Shown here: one piece after another, positions 41,910 through 46,576 of the stretch
Position numbering within the stretch: position 1 is the stretch's first letter
Layout of the letters: each line of letters starts with the position of its first letter
From: Escherichia phage vB_EcoM_SA35RD
Length of the DNA stretch: 64,000 nt
Strand: one strand, 5' to 3'
Sequence record: OL960577.1
Notes under the pieces: model-generated
Seen by the model: only the letters and a program-made list of their open reading frames with translations
Told to the model about the DNA's origin: nothing
Databases searched by the model: none
Position numbers and translations under genes: made by a program

Positions 41910-42374
41910 TTATTTAATTTGTTTAGCAGACCAGATACGGTCTTTAATAAGTTTTTGGATATCTTCAACATACTCAAGGCTATGAGCGTGAGGATTATCT
42001 TTGAAGCTATGTGCTCGTGCCAGTTTCTGGCCTTCTGTTTTGATTACTAAAAGCTCTTTAAGAATTGCTTCATACTTAGAAATAATTCCTTTGGCGATAT
42101 TTTTTTCTTGAGCTGCTTTAGGGTCTGTTTTTGGCGCAGGTGCTTTACCTGTAGCTTTCTGGAACAATTCACCTGATGCAGCTAGGCTTTTAAAAACTCG
42201 GCTAACAGTATTAGCATTAGTAAAACCTTCGGCTTTAAAATCTCTAATAAAACGGAAACGTTCTTCATCAGAGGCGTCTTTGTAAGAATATTTACCTGCT
42301 TGAATTGCTGCAATCGCAGCGGCTTTTACATCTGAACTAGATTGTTCAGTCAAAAATTCAGCGTATGATTTCAT
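41910..42374 (-). CDS. internal (capsid-targeted) protein (154 aa)
   Basis: N-terminal MKSYAEFLTE capsid-targeting-like leader. Confidence 0.55.
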   Translation of the reverse strand: MKSYAEFLTEQSSSDVKAAAIAAIQAGKYSYKDASDEERFRFIRDFKAEGFTNANTVSRVFKSLAASGELFQKATGKAPAPKTDPKAAQEKNIAKGIISKYEAILKELLVIKTEGQKLARAHSFKDNPHAHSLEYVEDIQKLIKDRIWSAKQIK

Positions 42375-42420
42375 GTTGCTTTTCCTAAGTTAATTAACTT
42401 ATCTATTTATTATTATGCCA

Positions 42421-42450
42421 AAAAGCCCCGACCTTTCGGAAGGGGCTAAG
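42421..42450 (-). terminator. rho-independent terminator, copy 3 (variant loop)
   Basis: Minus strand AGCCCC-TTCCGAAAGGTC-GGGGCT then TTTT. Confidence 0.55.
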
Positions 42451-42454
42451 CCTT

Positions 42455-42745
42455 GCGGCAACCTTGTCGGGGTTTCCACCTACTAAGGCAAGTGTTTGTA
42501 CGAAACGCCGGGATTCGAACCCGGTTATCAAGTAGTTGACGCTACTCAATATTTTTAAAAGGCCATATCTCGACCATATCCGAACGTTCCGTCAAAAACG
42601 CTACTCGGCTTACGGCAAAGATATTTCCTCGAATCGATAATTCGGTGCGCCGTTTCTGCTGTGATGTAAGGGGATATTAACAAATCGTAAAGATTTATTA
42701 AGACCAGTCCTTACTCAGGGAACATCAGTCCGACGACTTACCGGT
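42455..42745 (-). ncRNA. non-coding region with tRNA-like 3' end (stable RNA or degenerate tRNA)
   Basis: About 300 nt with no ORF; minus strand carries CCGGG-TTCGAAT-CCCGG T-arm plus 7-bp acceptor pairing at 42497..42523, but I could not fold a full cloverleaf. Confidence 0.3.
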
Positions 42746-42759
42746 AGCGACCCGGCTTC

Positions 42760-43104
42760 TTATTTTGGCATATCATCAATTTGCTCTCGACGCCGACGCC
42801 ATAGATTAATCGCTTCATTAACACATTCGGCGTTTGGTATATGACGGCAATAATATAATGATTCGCGTTTCTGGAACCGATGTTGCAATGGAATTTCGTT
42901 TAAAAGGTCTTTACGGTCAAAGTATTCAAAACTAGTTAACCCAGAACGATTTTTAATGAACTTCCAATGTCCAAATTCATTTTGAACATAGATGTAATCG
43001 GCATGCTGATACAGCAAATTAATCAATCGATGAGAAATAACTGTATCATATTCGTTAAAATAAAACGTTAAATCATGAACTACCAGATAAATATTGCCTT
43101 TCAT
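42760..43104 (-). CDS. hypothetical protein (about 114 aa)
   Basis: Track ORF 42760..43152 trimmed to MKGNIYLVVHDL to clear the tRNA. Confidence 0.45.
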   Translation of the reverse strand: MKGNIYLVVHDLTFYFNEYDTVISHRLINLLYQHADYIYVQNEFGHWKFIKNRSGLTSFEYFDRKDLLNEIPLQHRFQKRESLYYCRHIPNAECVNEAINLWRRRREQIDDMPK

Positions 43105-43122
43105 ATTTTCCTCACTTGAAGT

Positions 43123-43199
<77 letters not shown>

Positions 43200-43205
43200 A
43201 ATATA

Positions 43206-43279
43206 TGACCCAGACCAGATTCGAACTGGTAACCTTTCCCTTATGAGGGGACTGCTGCTAACCATTGAGCTACAGGGCC
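43206..43279 (-). tRNA. tRNA with CAU anticodon (Ile2/AUA-decoding or Met)
   Basis: Acceptor GGCCCTG/CTGGGTC (one U-U mismatch), anticodon loop CTCATAA, T-arm ACCAG-TTCGAAT-CTGGT; 3-bp D-stem. Confidence 0.6.
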
Positions 43280-43358
43280 TAAATAACTTTCTATTATGAA
43301 AGGCACTTTAGAGCACCTTTGGTAATAGAGGGTATGAATTAATAATATCACATTATTC

Positions 43359-43874
43359 TTAAAGCAAATCAATCATTTTAACAGTCGGCAAAACGATTTC
43401 TTCTTCAATATAAGCGAATTCAACACGTTCAACTACACGCAAGAAATCATAGTCGTAGTATTCAGAAGCATAGCCAAGAATATCAATAAGGCCTTTGGAT
43501 ACCTCATCACCTTTCACAAAGAACAGGTCGAATACACGGGCTTCGTCTTCTTCAGATTTATCGCCAAGGTCAACTTCAATACCAAAGACCTTTTTAATGA
43601 ATTCCGGCTGGAGCTGGTCAGAGAACAGTCCTTCAACCAGATATTCGTAGATAATAAGCGAGCAACGACCGAATGGCGTATTACCACAGTAACGTTCGGC
43701 TTTAGTGCTGGAATGACGACTCTTAAATTTCTTCAAGAGATATTTAAACTGTTGGAGCTCATGCTCTTCTACACCAAATAATGTTTTGGTTTTATAGTTG
43801 TCACCGTCATTTTCCCAAGTAGTGACATCAATTACGTAACCCTTAGGAATTGTACTGCCTAAACAAATATTCAT
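43359..43874 (-). CDS. hypothetical protein (171 aa)
   Basis: Track ORF. Confidence 0.5.
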   Translation of the reverse strand: MNICLGSTIPKGYVIDVTTWENDGDNYKTKTLFGVEEHELQQFKYLLKKFKSRHSSTKAERYCGNTPFGRCSLIIYEYLVEGLFSDQLQPEFIKKVFGIEVDLGDKSEEDEARVFDLFFVKGDEVSKGLIDILGYASEYYDYDFLRVVERVEFAYIEEEIVLPTVKMIDLL

Positions 43875-43878
43875 TTAC

Positions 43879-44169
43879 TCACCTTACCATATTAATGTAA
43901 TTATATTCAATGCAACGCAATTTCAAAGGATTCTTGAAAATATCATATTCAAGAGGGCCTTTTTCTGTTTCAATAAAGAAATCAAAGTTAACTGTGTTAA
44001 ATTTATCATCTTCACATAGTAATTTAACCTGTGAAGATGAACGGTCGATATAAACCTTTTCAACCTCAAAGTTAGTCAGAATACCGTAGTCATCGACTAG
44101 TGCTTTAGCTGCACGTTGATCGCTTTCATATCCATTCTCAATGGACGATACTTTAGCATAAAGAATCAT
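43879..44169 (-). CDS. hypothetical protein (96 aa)
   Basis: Track ORF. Confidence 0.45.
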   Translation of the reverse strand: MILYAKVSSIENGYESDQRAAKALVDDYGILTNFEVEKVYIDRSSSQVKLLCEDDKFNTVNFDFFIETEKGPLEYDIFKNPLKLRCIEYNYINMVR

Positions 44170-44561
44170 GAATGTTCCACCACTTCAAAAGTATGTGCAC
44201 TGACAATCTGGTACCAGTCAAAATTTTCTTCAGCATTTTTGTAGATTTCACGAAGAGCTTCAACAGTTTTTCCTGTAGCAACAAGGTCGTCAATACCACC
44301 AAGAGGATAACAGTCATAACCAGCAAACAGAAGGAAATTAATAGTTTCTGTAGGTTCTTGATGCAGTGTACCATTGTCATCGACTACTTCAAAGAACATA
44401 TAACCAGGCGATTTAGATTTAATCCAAGCCCATGCTTGAGCTGCTGAATCAAATGGTTTGCGTATCAAACGACAATCAGGATCTTTAGAAGGATTTGCTT
44501 CAAAATCCGCATATACGTGATATTTCATTTTACTCACCTTTTGCAATTTTATCCATAACAA
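44166..44561 (-). CDS. hypothetical protein (131 aa)
   Basis: Track ORF. Confidence 0.5.
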   Translation of the reverse strand: MLWIKLQKVSKMKYHVYADFEANPSKDPDCRLIRKPFDSAAQAWAWIKSKSPGYMFFEVVDDNGTLHQEPTETINFLLFAGYDCYPLGGIDDLVATGKTVEALREIYKNAEENFDWYQIVSAHTFEVVEHS

Positions 44562-44736
44562 TAGCGATTAAACCGATTAGAAATGCTACTACCAATGAGA
44601 TAGAATTTTCGGTTGTTGTCAGTAGTCCGCAAATGAATCCTACAAACATCGAAAAACTAAAAGCCATTGAAGCAATTACTACAGCAACATTACGAATCAG
44701 TTCAGCGCGTTTCATTTTATTTCTCCATTTACTCAT
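44530..44736 (-). CDS. hypothetical small membrane protein (about 61-68 aa)
   Basis: Two hydrophobic spans; start 44736 or 44715. Confidence 0.45.
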   Translation of the reverse strand: MSKWRNKMKRAELIRNVAVVIASMAFSFSMFVGFICGLLTTTENSISLVVAFLIGLIAIVMDKIAKGE

Positions 44737-44753
44737 TTTGTTTTGATAGGACT

Positions 44754-44783
44754 ACTATAACATAGTCCTATCGTGTTGTAAAC
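44754..44783 (-). promoter_or_regulatory. early promoter cassette (-35 GTTTAC, -10 TATAGT) with TAGGACTA inverted repeat
   Basis: Read directly. Confidence 0.5.
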
Positions 44784-44786
44784 TAC

Positions 44787-45074
44787 TTACAGAAGAGTTT
44801 TTGCAATAATTTTAAGCTGAGCTACAGAAATGTGCTTAGTTTTAAACAGTGCAGTCTCTTCAGCCGGAGAGATAACAATAGTAGCGCCATCTTTCTTAGC
44901 AGACCATCCATCCCCTAAGTAAACAGTACCTTTTACTTCTTCGCCGTCAACCAGACTAATCATTGGTTTACCCTCACGTCCTTTATTTGCTTTAATAACT
45001 TCGGAAGTAAGGGTTGCTTCGGTTAGAGTAGAAACGTTAGCATCAGGTGATATAAATTCTTTATAGGTTTTCAT
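44787..45074 (-). CDS. ipI: internal protein I (IPI-like)
   Basis: 95 aa; MKTYKEFIS leader; position next to 57B as in T4; body resembles IPI as I recall it. Confidence 0.7.
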   Translation of the reverse strand: MKTYKEFISPDANVSTLTEATLTSEVIKANKGREGKPMISLVDGEEVKGTVYLGDGWSAKKDGATIVISPAEETALFKTKHISVAQLKIIAKTLL

Positions 45075-45108
45075 TTTATTTCCTTGAGGTCGTTTATTTG
45101 ATAGGATG

Positions 45109-45138
45109 ATAGTAACACGTCATCATCCTTATGTAAAC
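45109..45138 (-). promoter_or_regulatory. early promoter cassette (-35 GTTTAC, -10 TACTAT) upstream of ipI
   Basis: Read directly. Confidence 0.5.
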
Positions 45139-45151
45139 TGTTTTGTGAAAA

Positions 45152-45837
<686 letters not shown>

Positions 45838-45841
45838 TTTA

Positions 45842-46576
45842 TTACCTTAAGATTGTTTCAATTTTAGAATAAAGCTCTTCTAAAGAGCCGTCGTTTGTAA
45901 TAACTAAATCGCCTTCTTCAATAGGCAACCCAGCTTCTGTAATATGTTTATCGGTGGATTCCGTACCAGAGCGAACCACATGAATAACTGTAGCACCCAT
46001 CGCTCTAGCGGTTTCCATTTCATGGACTTGGCGTGTATCGGTTACAACATAGTAATCGAAATCACTTCCAATATAATCCATATAATTTAATGCAAAAAGT
46101 TTAACCCAATACATACGGTCAAATAAATTAACGACAACATCCGTACCGAGGGCTTGCATAAGACGGCGGATTGACCATGTGTCGTTGATATTATTTATAG
46201 CTTCACGCAGGGCTTCATATGGTTTAATATCTAGATATGAATATCCACCTTCTAAGGATGATAATACTTTAACATTATTAATTGGTAAATATTGACTTTG
46301 TAAATAAATTAGCGCTTCTTCCATTAATTCAATAACATCCAACTTATTGATATTTAATGGCGTTTCACGGTCGTATCCAACACCTTCAAAGTATTCATAT
46401 TTCAACTCAGTGAATACATCAGGGTTTTCAGCATGTTTACGTCCCCAGGCTATTGCTAGAGCGTCTTTAATCGGATATGCCAATTGGTATTTTACGGATT
46501 TAAAGTTTGAATTGATGTAATCAGCAGTAGTGTCTTTACCACTACGTTTGATGCCACTTAAAAAGATTAGCTCCAT
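45842..46576 (-). CDS. 1: deoxynucleoside monophosphate kinase gp1
   Basis: 244 aa; P-loop FLSGIKRSGKDTTADYI. Confidence 0.85.
   Translation of the reverse strand: MELIFLSGIKRSGKDTTADYINSNFKSVKYQLAYPIKDALAIAWGRKHAENPDVFTELKYEYFEGVGYDRETPLNINKLDVIELMEEALIYLQSQYLPINNVKVLSSLEGGYSYLDIKPYEALREAINNINDTWSIRRLMQALGTDVVVNLFDRMYWVKLFALNYMDYIGSDFDYYVVTDTRQVHEMETARAMGATVIHVVRSGTESTDKHITEAGLPIEEGDLVITNDGSLEELYSKIETILR

What the first reader, a model, noticed from the sequence alone, without database searches (positions are those of the whole stretch)
42455..42745. About 300 nt non-coding stretch with a tRNA-like 3' end next to the two tRNA genes
Between the terminator at 42421-42450 and ORF 42760-43104 there is no ORF on either strand. 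The minus strand carries a canonical T-arm (CCGGG-TTCGAAT-CCCGG) followed by a 7-nt segment that pairs with CGGAACG about 85 nt upstream, but the intervening sequence (containing a direct repeat GATATGG...GATATGG and an AGTAG-cgtcaa-CTACT hairpin) does not fold into a standard cloverleaf by hand. T4 encodes two stable RNAs of unknown function in its tRNA region, so this may be their counterpart, or a decaying type II tRNA.
Basis: partly seen in the sequence, partly recalled or inferred. Interest (0 to 1): 0.45.

Follow-up and report, generated by a model that had tools for sequence, protein, structure and literature searches.

The report
T4-type stable RNAs rnaC and rnaD
The non-coding stretch holds this phage's copies of two small stable RNAs (rnaD, then rnaC) that have been annotated in phage T4 for decades and whose job is still unknown; rnaC is a conserved tRNA-shaped RNA, not a decaying tRNA gene.

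Summary
The 300-nt gap is real, structured and non-coding. It is the direct orthologue of T4 rnaD (species 2 RNA; window 42763-42644, minus strand) and rnaC (species 1 RNA; 42637-42499). These are followed by a 51-nt trailer and an intrinsic terminator (42447-42420). The region is 92% identical to T4 70825-71173, where both RNAs are annotated; rnaC alone matches at 137/139.

The alternative (decaying type II tRNA) is not, and neither is the proposed acceptor pairing. Covariation in 35 distinct homologues from seven Tevenvirinae-type genera shows that the 3' CGUUUCG pairs with the 5' end of rnaC (CGAUUCG). CGGAACG belongs to a local hairpin instead.

rnaC is a four-way junction: acceptor-like stem, canonical T arm, a 10-bp hairpin and a 70-nt arm. 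The apical loops of the last two (UUGACG and CGUCAA) form a 6-bp kissing interaction, paired in 35/35 sequences with two compensatory changes. It has no free anticodon loop.

Function remains unknown in the papers I could read (2010-2025). My best inference is a tRNA-shaped RNA cut out by tRNA-processing enzymes and acting as a protein-binding mimic; this is untested. Already known; modest interest.

The parts
43206..43279 (-). tRNA-Met (CAU); first gene of the reduced tRNA cluster (context)
   Evidence: ARAGORN; Rfam tRNA 54 bits
43123..43199 (-). tRNA-Arg (UCU) (context). In T4 this tRNA directly abuts rnaD.
   Evidence: ARAGORN; Rfam tRNA 71.1 bits; T4 map
42760..43104 (-). ORF of 114 aa, function unknown (phrog_3355), lying between tRNA-Arg and rnaD. 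Its UAA stop (42762-42760) overlaps the first nucleotides of rnaD as annotated in T4.
42644..42763 (-). rnaD (species 2 RNA) orthologue. Boundaries are transferred from the T4/RB27 annotation; the true 5' end in this phage is unknown.
   Evidence: 106/121 identical to T4 rnaD; structure 95% paired, 8/29 pairs with compensatory change
42740..42756 (-). rnaD 5' hairpin GCCGG-GUCGCUA-CCGGU (5 bp, 7-nt loop)
   Evidence: closing pair covaries A-U / G-C / G.U; coordinates
42731..42737 (-). rnaD long-range helix, 5' strand GUCGUCG. It pairs with CGGCG(C)AC at 42652-42645.
   Evidence: RNAalifold. All 7 pairs are invariant, so covariation neither supports nor contradicts this helix.
42645..42652 (-). 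rnaD long-range helix, 3' strand
42671..42709 (-). rnaD apical hairpin. This module is variable and is replaced by unrelated hairpins in other phages.
42638..42643 (-). 6-nt spacer GAAUUA between rnaD and rnaC
42499..42637 (-). rnaC (species 1 RNA) orthologue, 139 nt
   Evidence: 137/139 identical to T4 rnaC; single hit of model R1 in the window, 160.9 bits
42630..42636 (-). rnaC P1 5' strand CGAUUCG (acceptor-like stem; two internal U.U)
   Evidence: covaries with 42507-42501: A-U/G-C in 15/20 sequences, fully Watson-Crick in the Tegunavirus clade
42501..42507 (-). rnaC P1 3' strand CGUUUCG
42560..42629 (-). rnaC long arm P2-P6. P2 is AGG/CCU. It is followed by an internal loop carrying an invariant A and UGG, then P3, P4, P5 and P6.
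   Evidence: helices 91-100% paired; 14 of the 17 pairs in P3-P6 have compensatory changes; P2 is invariant
42590..42595 (-). P6 apical loop UUGACG, one partner of the kissing interaction
   Evidence: pairs with 42541-42536 in 35/35 sequences; A-U to G-C and C-G to U-A double changes
42552..42559 (-). conserved single-stranded junction UUUAAAAA (AAAAU invariant)
42526..42551 (-). rnaC P7, a 10-bp hairpin with loop CGUCAA (42541-42536).
   Evidence: 8 of 10 pairs with compensatory changes
42508..42524 (-). rnaC T arm CCGGG-UUCGAAU-CCCGG
   Evidence: 100% paired, 2 covarying pairs; the exact T-loop motif occurs once in the window
42448..42498 (-). 3' trailer of the primary transcript. It starts with the conserved CAA(A/U) and is conserved with T4.
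   Evidence: trailer plus terminator 75/84 identical to T4
42420..42447 (-). intrinsic terminator AGCCCC-UU-CC-GAAA-GG-UC-GGGGCU-UUUU
   Evidence: conserved in T4 and RB27

Best explanation
SHOWN. The stretch encodes, on the minus strand, the orthologues of phage T4 rnaD (species 2 RNA) and rnaC (species 1 RNA), in a Mosigvirus-type T4 relative. They lie at the 3' end of a reduced tRNA operon: tRNA-Met, tRNA-Arg, a 114-aa ORF, rnaD, a 6-nt spacer, rnaC, a trailer and a terminator.

rnaC folds into a four-way junction.
- Its 5' and 3' ends form a 7-bp acceptor-like stem (P1). P1 adjoins a canonical T arm with no intervening nucleotide; as in tRNA, the two are inferred to stack on each other.
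- A 3-bp stem (P2) stands where a D stem would be. Its loop keeps an A and a GG, and has been expanded by a 60-nt arm (P3-P6).
- A 10-bp hairpin (P7) stands where an anticodon or variable arm would be.
- The P6 and P7 apical loops pair with each other (UUGACG with CGUCAA). The molecule is therefore closed on itself and has no free anticodon-like loop.

rnaD is a separate structured RNA: a 5' hairpin, a long-range helix, and an exchangeable apical hairpin.

INFERRED.
- The acceptor/T-arm half makes rnaC a substrate for the host tRNA maturation enzymes (RNase P at the 5' side, 3' trimming). This would excise it from the polycistronic transcript and, together with the compact fold, let it accumulate as a stable RNA.
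- It cannot decode. Its most likely role is as a tRNA-shape mimic that binds or titrates a tRNA-recognising protein of host or phage (roughly 25-30% for this specific role). The invariant junction and loop sequences would supply the specificity.
- rnaD's role is unknown.
For: Identity:
- 92.3% identity over 349 nt to T4 70825-71173, annotated rnaD, rnaC and tRNA-Arg. 94.8% to RB27, with the same annotation.
- rnaC 137/139 and rnaD 106/121 identical to T4.
- Nearest genomes are Mosigvirus (a20, 98.6%).

Structure of rnaC:
- RNAalifold on 19 sequences, then a model-based alignment of 35 distinct sequences, give 94.3% of cells paired. 28 of 48 pairs have changes on both sides. 0/500 shuffles reach the observed values on four of the five measures (1/500 on the fifth). 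Slid controls give 37-48% paired.
- P1: 6-141 switches A-U/G-C, and the tandem U.U becomes U-A/C-G in the Tegunavirus clade.
- Kissing loop: paired in 35/35 sequences, with two independent double changes.
- The single-sequence MFE of the 139-nt RNA gives the same helices.
- The ends annotated for T4 rnaC lie 1 nt before and 2 nt after P1.

Processing context:
- In Karamvirus and Moonvirus, rnaC sits between tRNA genes with 2-7-nt spacers on each side (e.g. L008: tRNA-Trp 623-696, rnaC about 702-841, tRNA-Gly from 848).
- In T4 the cluster is described as one ~1.75-kb precursor of eight tRNAs plus species I and II RNAs, terminating after species I (PMC2330249).

Expression:
- RNAC and RNAD are detected by RNA-seq, and validated by a Northern assay (riboprobe against RNAC), as late-accumulating RNAs in T4 infection (PMC9697503).

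Selection:
- rnaC is at least 95% identical in 682/750 records, whereas rnaD and the flanks are about 88%.

rnaD structure:
- 95% paired, 8/29 pairs with double changes.
Against: - There are no transcript data for this phage. The boundaries are transferred from T4.
- Rfam has no family for either RNA. The only covariance model that hits was built here from the homologues themselves, so it is circular as evidence.
- P2 of rnaC and the long-range helix of rnaD never vary, so they rest on thermodynamics alone.
- The kissing loop rests on two evolutionary events.
- The D-loop-like GG / T-loop contact rests on a single clade.
- The functional part is inference only. The papers I could read call the function unknown (PMC3014915, PMC9697503, PMC12685909).
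- Some natural phages have lost rnaC (LQ5) or both RNAs (AV115), so neither is essential.
- The genomic 3' end is UACAAA rather than NCCA, so recognition by CCA-dependent factors is uncertain.
Confidence: 0.88

Rival explanations
1. The 3' 90-95 nt are a decaying, or unusual but real, type II tRNA. In this reading the acceptor is ACGGAACG/CGUUUCGU, the anticodon lies in CUUUUAAAAAU, and AGUAG/CUACU is the variable arm.
For: - The complementarity exists in this sequence.
- Rfam tRNA-Sec gives a weak alignment of this kind (16.8 bits, E = 2.8).
- ARAGORN calls a 94-nt tRNA-Lys(UUU) in G4507 and a 96-nt tRNA-Phe(GAA) in Pet-CM3-4 at the same place.
Against: - ARAGORN and the Rfam tRNA model find nothing here in the window.
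- The proposed acceptor has no compensatory change, and one pair is broken in 13/19 sequences.
- Its 5' strand and the supposed D arm are used by P4-P6. There, 12 of 13 pairs covary with partners that lie outside the supposed tRNA.
- The 'anticodon' differs between lineages, and the ARAGORN stems contain mismatches.
- Near-invariance across about 680 genomes is the opposite of decay.
Confidence: 0.03
2. The stretch is a passive 3' UTR or spacer before the terminator, or it encodes the small proteins (48 and 42 aa, TTG starts) that some genome records annotate.
For: - TTG ORFs exist.
- a20_250 and a20_251 are annotated as hypothetical proteins over the same DNA.
- The stretch lies downstream of an ORF and upstream of a terminator.
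Against: - The T4 and RB27 reference annotations list RNAs here, not CDSs.
- Discrete stable transcripts are documented in T4 (PMC9697503).
- Substitutions come in base-paired doublets, and homologues differ by 1-2-nt indels that would shift any reading frame.
- In other genera the same RNA sits between tRNA genes, with no upstream ORF.
Confidence: 0.03
3. rnaC has no function in trans. It would be a cis-acting, tRNA-shaped processing or stability module ('tRNA punctuation'). It would direct RNase P cleavage to free neighbouring RNAs and protect the operon's 3' end from exonucleases. rnaD would be likewise a by-product.
For: - It is always embedded in, or at the end of, tRNA operons. In Tequatro-/Mosigvirus it is the last structured element before the terminator.
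- It can be lost naturally.
- No phenotype is known.
Against: - A punctuation role needs only the acceptor/T-arm half. It does not explain the near-invariant junction AAAAU, the invariant P2, or the conserved loop-loop pairing in a 70-nt extra arm across seven genera.
- In Karamvirus the flanking tRNAs are themselves RNase P substrates, so no extra handle is needed there.
- Convergent mutation of rnaD during adaptation to a semi-permissive host hints at a trans effect (PMC12685909).
Confidence: 0.2
4. rnaC is charged with an amino acid and acts on the ribosome, like a tmRNA tRNA-like domain or a non-decoding tRNA.
For: Acceptor stem, T arm and a GG element are all present, as in the tmRNA tRNA-like domain.
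Against: - No CCA is encoded (UACAAA), and the T4-annotated mature end is ...CGUA.
- There is no G3.U70 alanine identity pair, because pair 3-70 is A-U or G-C.
- ARAGORN finds no tmRNA, and there is no tag reading frame.
- There is no accessible anticodon-like loop.
Confidence: 0.04

Closest known systems
Phage T4 rnaC (species 1 RNA, T4s001)
   Same: 137/139 identical. Same order rnaD, spacer, rnaC, trailer, terminator. Same predicted fold.
   Different: Two substitutions only. The upstream context differs: T4 has eight tRNAs plus segB, this phage has two tRNAs plus an ORF.
Phage T4 rnaD (species 2 RNA, T4s002)
   Same: 106/121 identical. The 5' hairpin, the long-range helix and the 3' end GCGCACC are conserved.
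   Different: In T4, rnaD starts 1 nt after tRNA-Arg. Here it follows directly on the stop codon of a 114-aa ORF, so its 5' end must be made in another way. T4 has CCA after GCGCA where this phage has CCG. The apical hairpin differs at several positions.
Canonical or type II tRNA (Rfam RF00005)
   Same: 7-bp terminal stem, 5-bp T stem with loop UUCGAAU, a four-helix junction, location in a tRNA operon.
   Different: - 139 nt long.
- No 5-bp/7-nt anticodon arm.
- The D-loop position carries a 60-nt arm.
- 0/10/1-nt connectors instead of 2/1/4-5.
- Tandem U.U in the acceptor stem.
- No CCA.
- No tRNA model hit.
tRNA-like domain of tmRNA
   Same: The RNA termini form an acceptor stem next to a T arm. 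The D-stem region is reduced. The anticodon arm is replaced by other structure.
   Different: No mRNA-like reading frame, no pseudoknot ring, no G3.U70, no encoded CCA, and not detected by ARAGORN. The resemblance is architectural only.
YrlA / bacterial Y RNA-like tRNA mimics (RF02553)
   Same: A non-coding RNA with a tRNA-like module. From my own knowledge, some are encoded near tRNA genes in phages.
   Different: In YrlA the termini form the Ro-binding stem and the tRNA-like part is internal; here the termini form the acceptor stem. There is no Rfam hit in rnaC (the only sub-threshold YrlA hit lies over the true tRNAs). From my own knowledge, E. coli K-12 lacks the Ro orthologue; I did not test this.

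Membership tests
T4 rnaC (species 1 RNA) | Sequence homology to the annotated T4 gene over its full length | tested here: met
   137/139 identical, end to end
T4 rnaC (species 1 RNA) | Position at the distal end of the phage tRNA gene cluster, same strand, followed by the cluster terminator | tested here: met
T4 rnaC (species 1 RNA) | Accumulates as a discrete, stable ~140-nt RNA during infection | not testable with these tools
   Shown for T4 by Northern and RNA-seq (PMC9697503); no data for this phage
T4 rnaD (species 2 RNA) | Sequence homology to the annotated T4 gene, immediately upstream of rnaC | tested here: met
   106/121 identical; 6-nt spacer to rnaC as in T4 and RB27
T4 rnaD (species 2 RNA) | 5' end adjoining the 3' end of tRNA-Arg (dimeric/multimeric tRNA precursor) | tested here: not met
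   A 345-nt ORF separates tRNA-Arg from rnaD here. This is a difference in context, not in the RNA itself.
tRNA (RF00005 / ARAGORN) | Scores as a tRNA with covariance-model or heuristic detectors | tested here: not met
   No ARAGORN call and no RF00005 hit at E<=10; tRNA-Sec 16.8 bits against a gathering score of 47
tRNA (RF00005 / ARAGORN) | Anticodon arm: 5-bp stem with a free 7-nt loop | tested here: not met
   The only candidate (P7) is 10 bp with a 6-nt loop that is fully paired to the P6 loop
tRNA (RF00005 / ARAGORN) | 7-bp acceptor stem formed by the RNA termini, adjoining a 5-bp T stem with a UUCRANY loop | tested here: met
   P1 (with two U.U) and the T arm, both with covariation
tRNA (RF00005 / ARAGORN) | D arm whose loop GG contacts the T loop | tested here: inconclusive
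   A 3-bp invariant stem with an A and a GG in the right places. One clade changes GG to CG together with T-loop U55 to G. This is a single event.
tRNA (RF00005 / ARAGORN) | 3' NCCA end and aminoacylation | not testable with these tools
   The genome encodes U-A-CAAA, and the T4 annotation ends at ...CGUA. Post-transcriptional addition cannot be tested here.
tmRNA | tRNA-like domain plus a tag-peptide reading frame; G3.U70 | tested here: not met
   ARAGORN finds no tmRNA; pair 3-70 is A-U/G-C

The most novel reading that the evidence does not exclude
rnaC is a dedicated tRNA-shape decoy. Its acceptor/T-arm elbow would be presented to a host tRNA-recognising factor, for example a tRNA-targeting defence nuclease or toxin, or a tRNA-processing or modifying enzyme. 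Its anticodon-like arm is locked in an intramolecular kissing complex, so it cannot enter decoding. It would thereby protect or reprogramme the tRNA pool late in infection. rnaD would be a second host-range modifier, as hinted by its convergent mutation on a semi-permissive host (PMC12685909). This would give a function to RNAs that have had none since the 1970s.
Probability: 0.15. Interest if true: 0.7.

Novelty: already known. Interest (0 to 1): 0.3.

Why it matters
As a genome feature this is ordinary: a nearly unchanged copy of two RNAs annotated in the T4 reference genome.

Three practical points follow.
- Many public T4-like genomes mis-annotate this DNA as hypothetical proteins or as odd tRNAs (tRNA-Lys, tRNA-Phe, a chimeric tRNA-Asn). 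There is no Rfam family to prevent that.
- The comparative model built here is, as far as the sources I could read show, not in current databases. It comprises the terminal acceptor stem, the T arm, the expanded D-like arm and a covarying loop-loop interaction. It gives concrete handles for testing the function of species 1 RNA, an old open question in T4 biology: loop swaps, the U.U pairs, and the A-rich junction.
- rnaC is an autonomous module found in at least seven genera, whereas rnaD is confined to the T4/RB69-type phages.

Tried and rejected
- Rfam at gathering and at permissive thresholds: no family for either RNA, only a sub-threshold tRNA-Sec alignment.
- ARAGORN on the window: only the two true tRNAs.
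- ARAGORN pseudo-tRNAs in G4507 and Pet-CM3-4: examined and rejected.
- Coding potential of the TTG ORFs: rejected.
- Similarity of rnaC to individual T4, RB27 or window tRNAs: nothing beyond the shared T loop.
- A homologue in 5,426 complete E. coli genomes: none.
- Pattern scans of IMG/VR and of the metagenome collection for more distant relatives: only Tevenvirinae-type phages, plus two GC-rich chance matches.
- A nearby T4-type late promoter TATAAATA: none within 3 kb upstream.
- Pfam for the three neighbouring ORFs: no hit; PHROGs gives only families of unknown function.
- Literature searches for a demonstrated function (rnaC/rnaD, species I/II RNA, p2Sp1, band C/D): nothing beyond 'unknown function'. 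The 2003 T4 genome review is not held.
- A possible alternative conformer (the CGGAACG segment swapping partners between GCGUUUU and GGCGUUUCG): noted, but unsupported by covariation.

Full report
**What is in the sequence**

Genes in this part of the window run on the minus strand. Reading that strand gives, in order:
- tRNA-Met, 43279-43206, and tRNA-Arg, 43199-43123 (ARAGORN and Rfam)
- an ATG ORF of 114 aa, 43104-42760
- about 310 nt without an ATG ORF
- an intrinsic terminator, 42447-42420
- the next ORF, 42374-41910

The stretch is more structured than chance. Its MFE is -122.8 kcal/mol, against -97.3 +/- 5.4 for shuffles (z = -4.7). The exact T-loop motif GGTTCGAATCC occurs only here in 64 kb.

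'No ORF on either strand' is true only for ATG starts. TTG ORFs of 48, 42 and 34 aa exist.

**What it is**

A 351-nt query finds 802 phage records. Among them is T4 NC_000866.4 70825-71173 at 92.3% identity, where the features under the match are rnaC, rnaD and tRNA-Arg. RB27 matches at 94.8% with rnaC and rnaD annotated.

The T4 record lists rnaD ('small, stable RNA; species 2 RNA', 71053-71171) and rnaC ('species 1 RNA', 70908-71046), directly after tRNA-Arg. RB27 has the same layout.

Aligning the three and transferring the coordinates gives:

| Element | Window coordinates | Identity to T4 |
|---|---|---|
| rnaD | 42763-42644 | 106/121 |
| spacer GAAUUA | 42643-42638 | - |
| rnaC | 42637-42499 | 137/139 |
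| trailer and terminator | 42498-42420 | 75/84 |

The closest genomes are Mosigvirus (RB69-type), e.g. phage a20 at 98.6%.

**State of knowledge**

The papers I could read describe RNAC and RNAD as follows.
- They are late-accumulating RNAs 'of yet unknown functions' in RNA-seq, validated by a Northern assay; the riboprobe described targets RNAC (PMC9697503, 2022).
- They are the site (rnaD) of a SNP that arose convergently in all lines of a T4-like phage adapting to a semi-permissive host (PMC12685909, 2025).

From memory, and unverified here: both RNAs were sequenced at the RNA level in the 1970s, and T4 deletions removing them are viable.

Rfam 15 has no family for either RNA.

**Structure of rnaC**

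rnaC is far more widely conserved than rnaD. It is at least 95% identical in 682 of 750 records. It is also found, at 70-87% identity, in Moonvirus, Karamvirus, Kanagawavirus, Tegunavirus and Marfavirus-type Klebsiella phages.

With IMG/VR and metagenome pattern scans I collected 35 distinct sequences. RNAalifold on 19 of them, then a covariance-model alignment of all 35, give one consistent fold. In window coordinates:

| Element | Coordinates | Note |
|---|---|---|
| P1 | 42636-42630 with 42507-42501 | acceptor-like stem |
| P2 | AGG 42629-42627 with CCU 42562-42560 | invariant |
| P3-P6 | within 42623-42566 | long arm |
| junction | 42559-42552 | single-stranded UUUAAAAA |
| P7 | 42551-42542 with 42535-42526 | 10-bp hairpin |
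| linker | 42525 | one A |
| T arm | 42524-42508 | canonical T loop |

Support for this fold:
- 94.3% of cells are paired.
- 28 of 48 pairs change on both sides.
- 0/500 shuffles reach the observed values on four of the five measures, and 1/500 on the fifth.
- Slid controls give 37-48% paired.

The 139-nt sequence alone folds into the same helices. The ends of the T4-annotated mature RNA lie 1 nt before and 2 nt after P1. This independently fits a terminal stem.

The pairing of ACGGAACG with CGUUUCGU shows no compensatory change, and pair 51-141 is broken in 13 of 19 sequences.

The true partner is the 5' end. Pair 6-141 switches between A-U (15 sequences) and G-C (20). The two internal U.U oppositions become U-A and C-G in the Tegunavirus clade.

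The CGGAACG segment forms the 3' strand of P6, where all five pairs covary.

These calls have mismatched stems and different anticodons, so they are false positives.

**A loop-loop interaction**

The P6 loop UUGACG (42595-42590) is the exact complement of the P7 loop CGUCAA (42541-42536). All six pairs form in 35/35 sequences.

There are two independent double substitutions:
- UUGAUG/CAUCAA in the Tegunavirus clade
- UUGGCG/CGCCAA in the Marfavirus-type clade

The only hairpin that could stand for an anticodon or variable arm is therefore sequestered.

The internal loop above P2 keeps an invariant A and a GG, at the places of tRNA A14 and G18-G19. In the IME523 clade, GG to CG coincides with a T-loop change that would turn G.U into C-G. 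This hints at a tRNA-like elbow, but it is a single event.

**Structure of rnaD**

Sixteen distinct sequences support the following (95% paired, 8/29 pairs with double changes):
- a 5' hairpin (42756-42740; the closing pair covaries)
- a long-range helix (42737-42731 with 42652-42645; invariant, hence untested)
- a central stem
- an apical hairpin that is replaced by unrelated hairpins in other lineages

I see no tRNA-like feature in rnaD. It is absent from the genera in which rnaC lies between tRNA genes.

**How it most likely works**

Shown:
- the identity of both RNAs
- the fold
- the autonomy of rnaC as a module. In different phages it follows rnaD, a tRNA, an ORF stop codon or a hairpin. 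In Karamvirus and Moonvirus it is flanked by tRNAs at 2-7 nt.

Inferred:
- The acceptor/T-arm half is the part of a tRNA that RNase P and the 3'-end enzymes recognise (established tRNA biology). rnaC is therefore probably excised like a tRNA, and it persists because it is compact.
- It cannot decode, and it has no encoded CCA (U-N-CAA trailer in all 35 sequences).
- The extra conservation (invariant P2, the AAAAU junction, the loop sequences) goes beyond what a processing handle needs. I therefore favour a trans-acting tRNA mimic that binds a tRNA-recognising protein (about 25-30%).
- A purely cis processing or stability role is the main rival (about 20%).
- In this phage, rnaD's 5' end abuts an ORF stop codon instead of tRNA-Arg. 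It must be produced by a different cleavage than in T4.

**Verdict**

The interpretation as the T4 rnaC/rnaD counterpart is right. The decaying-tRNA reading and the hand fold are wrong. The feature is already known. What this analysis adds is the comparative structure, including the kissing loop, and a list of annotation errors in public genomes.

Noticed in passing
window 42760-43104 (-): A 114-aa ORF of unknown function (phrog_3355, no Pfam hit) sits between tRNA-Arg and rnaD. Its stop codon overlaps the T4-annotated start of rnaD. T4 and RB27 lack it, and G4507/L010-type phages carry a different ORF at the same junction. This looks like a hotspot for gene insertion.
   Followed up: partly
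L051 (phage a20) 2524-2670 and 2676-2804; equivalent to window 42403-42549 and 42555-42683: A public Mosigvirus record annotates two TTG-initiated 'hypothetical proteins' over rnaC, rnaD and the terminator. These are very likely spurious calls over RNA genes.
   Followed up: partly
L053 (G4507) 540-633; L008 (Pet-CM3-4) 747-842: ARAGORN and record annotations call a 94-nt tRNA-Lys(UUU) and a 96-nt tRNA-Phe(GAA) inside rnaC. They have mismatched stems and lineage-specific 'anticodons', and they are incompatible with the covarying helices.
   Followed up: yes
L052 (phage AV115) 651-727: The annotated 'tRNA-Asn' is a chimera: the 5' part of a tRNA-Asn joined, within the shared GGTTCGAATCC T-loop sequence, to the 3' end of rnaC. 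tRNA-Arg, the ORF, rnaD and most of rnaC are deleted. The new acceptor strands no longer pair.
   Followed up: partly
L024 (phage LQ5) 901-1040: rnaD is present but is followed directly by the post-rnaC trailer (…GCGCACCGAA|CACUUGCC…). rnaC is cleanly absent, so it is dispensable in at least one natural phage.
   Followed up: partly
L020 636-700, L021, L025-L027, L049 (Marfavirus-type Klebsiella phages): A conserved ~55-nt hairpin element (GGGGUGG…CCCACYCC) lies between tRNA-Met and rnaC, in the place that rnaD occupies in T4-type phages. It may be another small RNA.
   Followed up: partly
L022, L028, L035 (IME523 clade), rnaC T loop and P2/P3 internal loop: The T loop UUCGAAU is replaced by UGCAUGC, and the nearby GG becomes CG. 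This would convert a G.U contact into C-G. It is a possible trace of a D-loop/T-loop-like tertiary contact, but it is a single event.
   Followed up: partly
window 42495-42500 and all 35 homologues: The 3' trailer after the rnaC acceptor stem is U-N-CAA(A/U) everywhere. N is A in most sequences, U in Tegunavirus and C in Marfavirus-type phages, where it reads UCCA. Whether this is a degenerate CCA or a processing signal is unexplained.
   Followed up: no
window 42630-42636 / 42501-42507: Two adjacent U.U oppositions in the middle of the rnaC acceptor-like stem are conserved in 32 of 35 sequences rather than drifting to Watson-Crick pairs. They may be a recognition feature.
   Followed up: no
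window 42300-46200 (-): There is no T4-type late promoter motif (TATAAATA) within about 3 kb upstream of rnaD/rnaC, although the T4 RNAs are classed as late-accumulating. Accumulation may reflect stability rather than late transcription.
   Followed up: no
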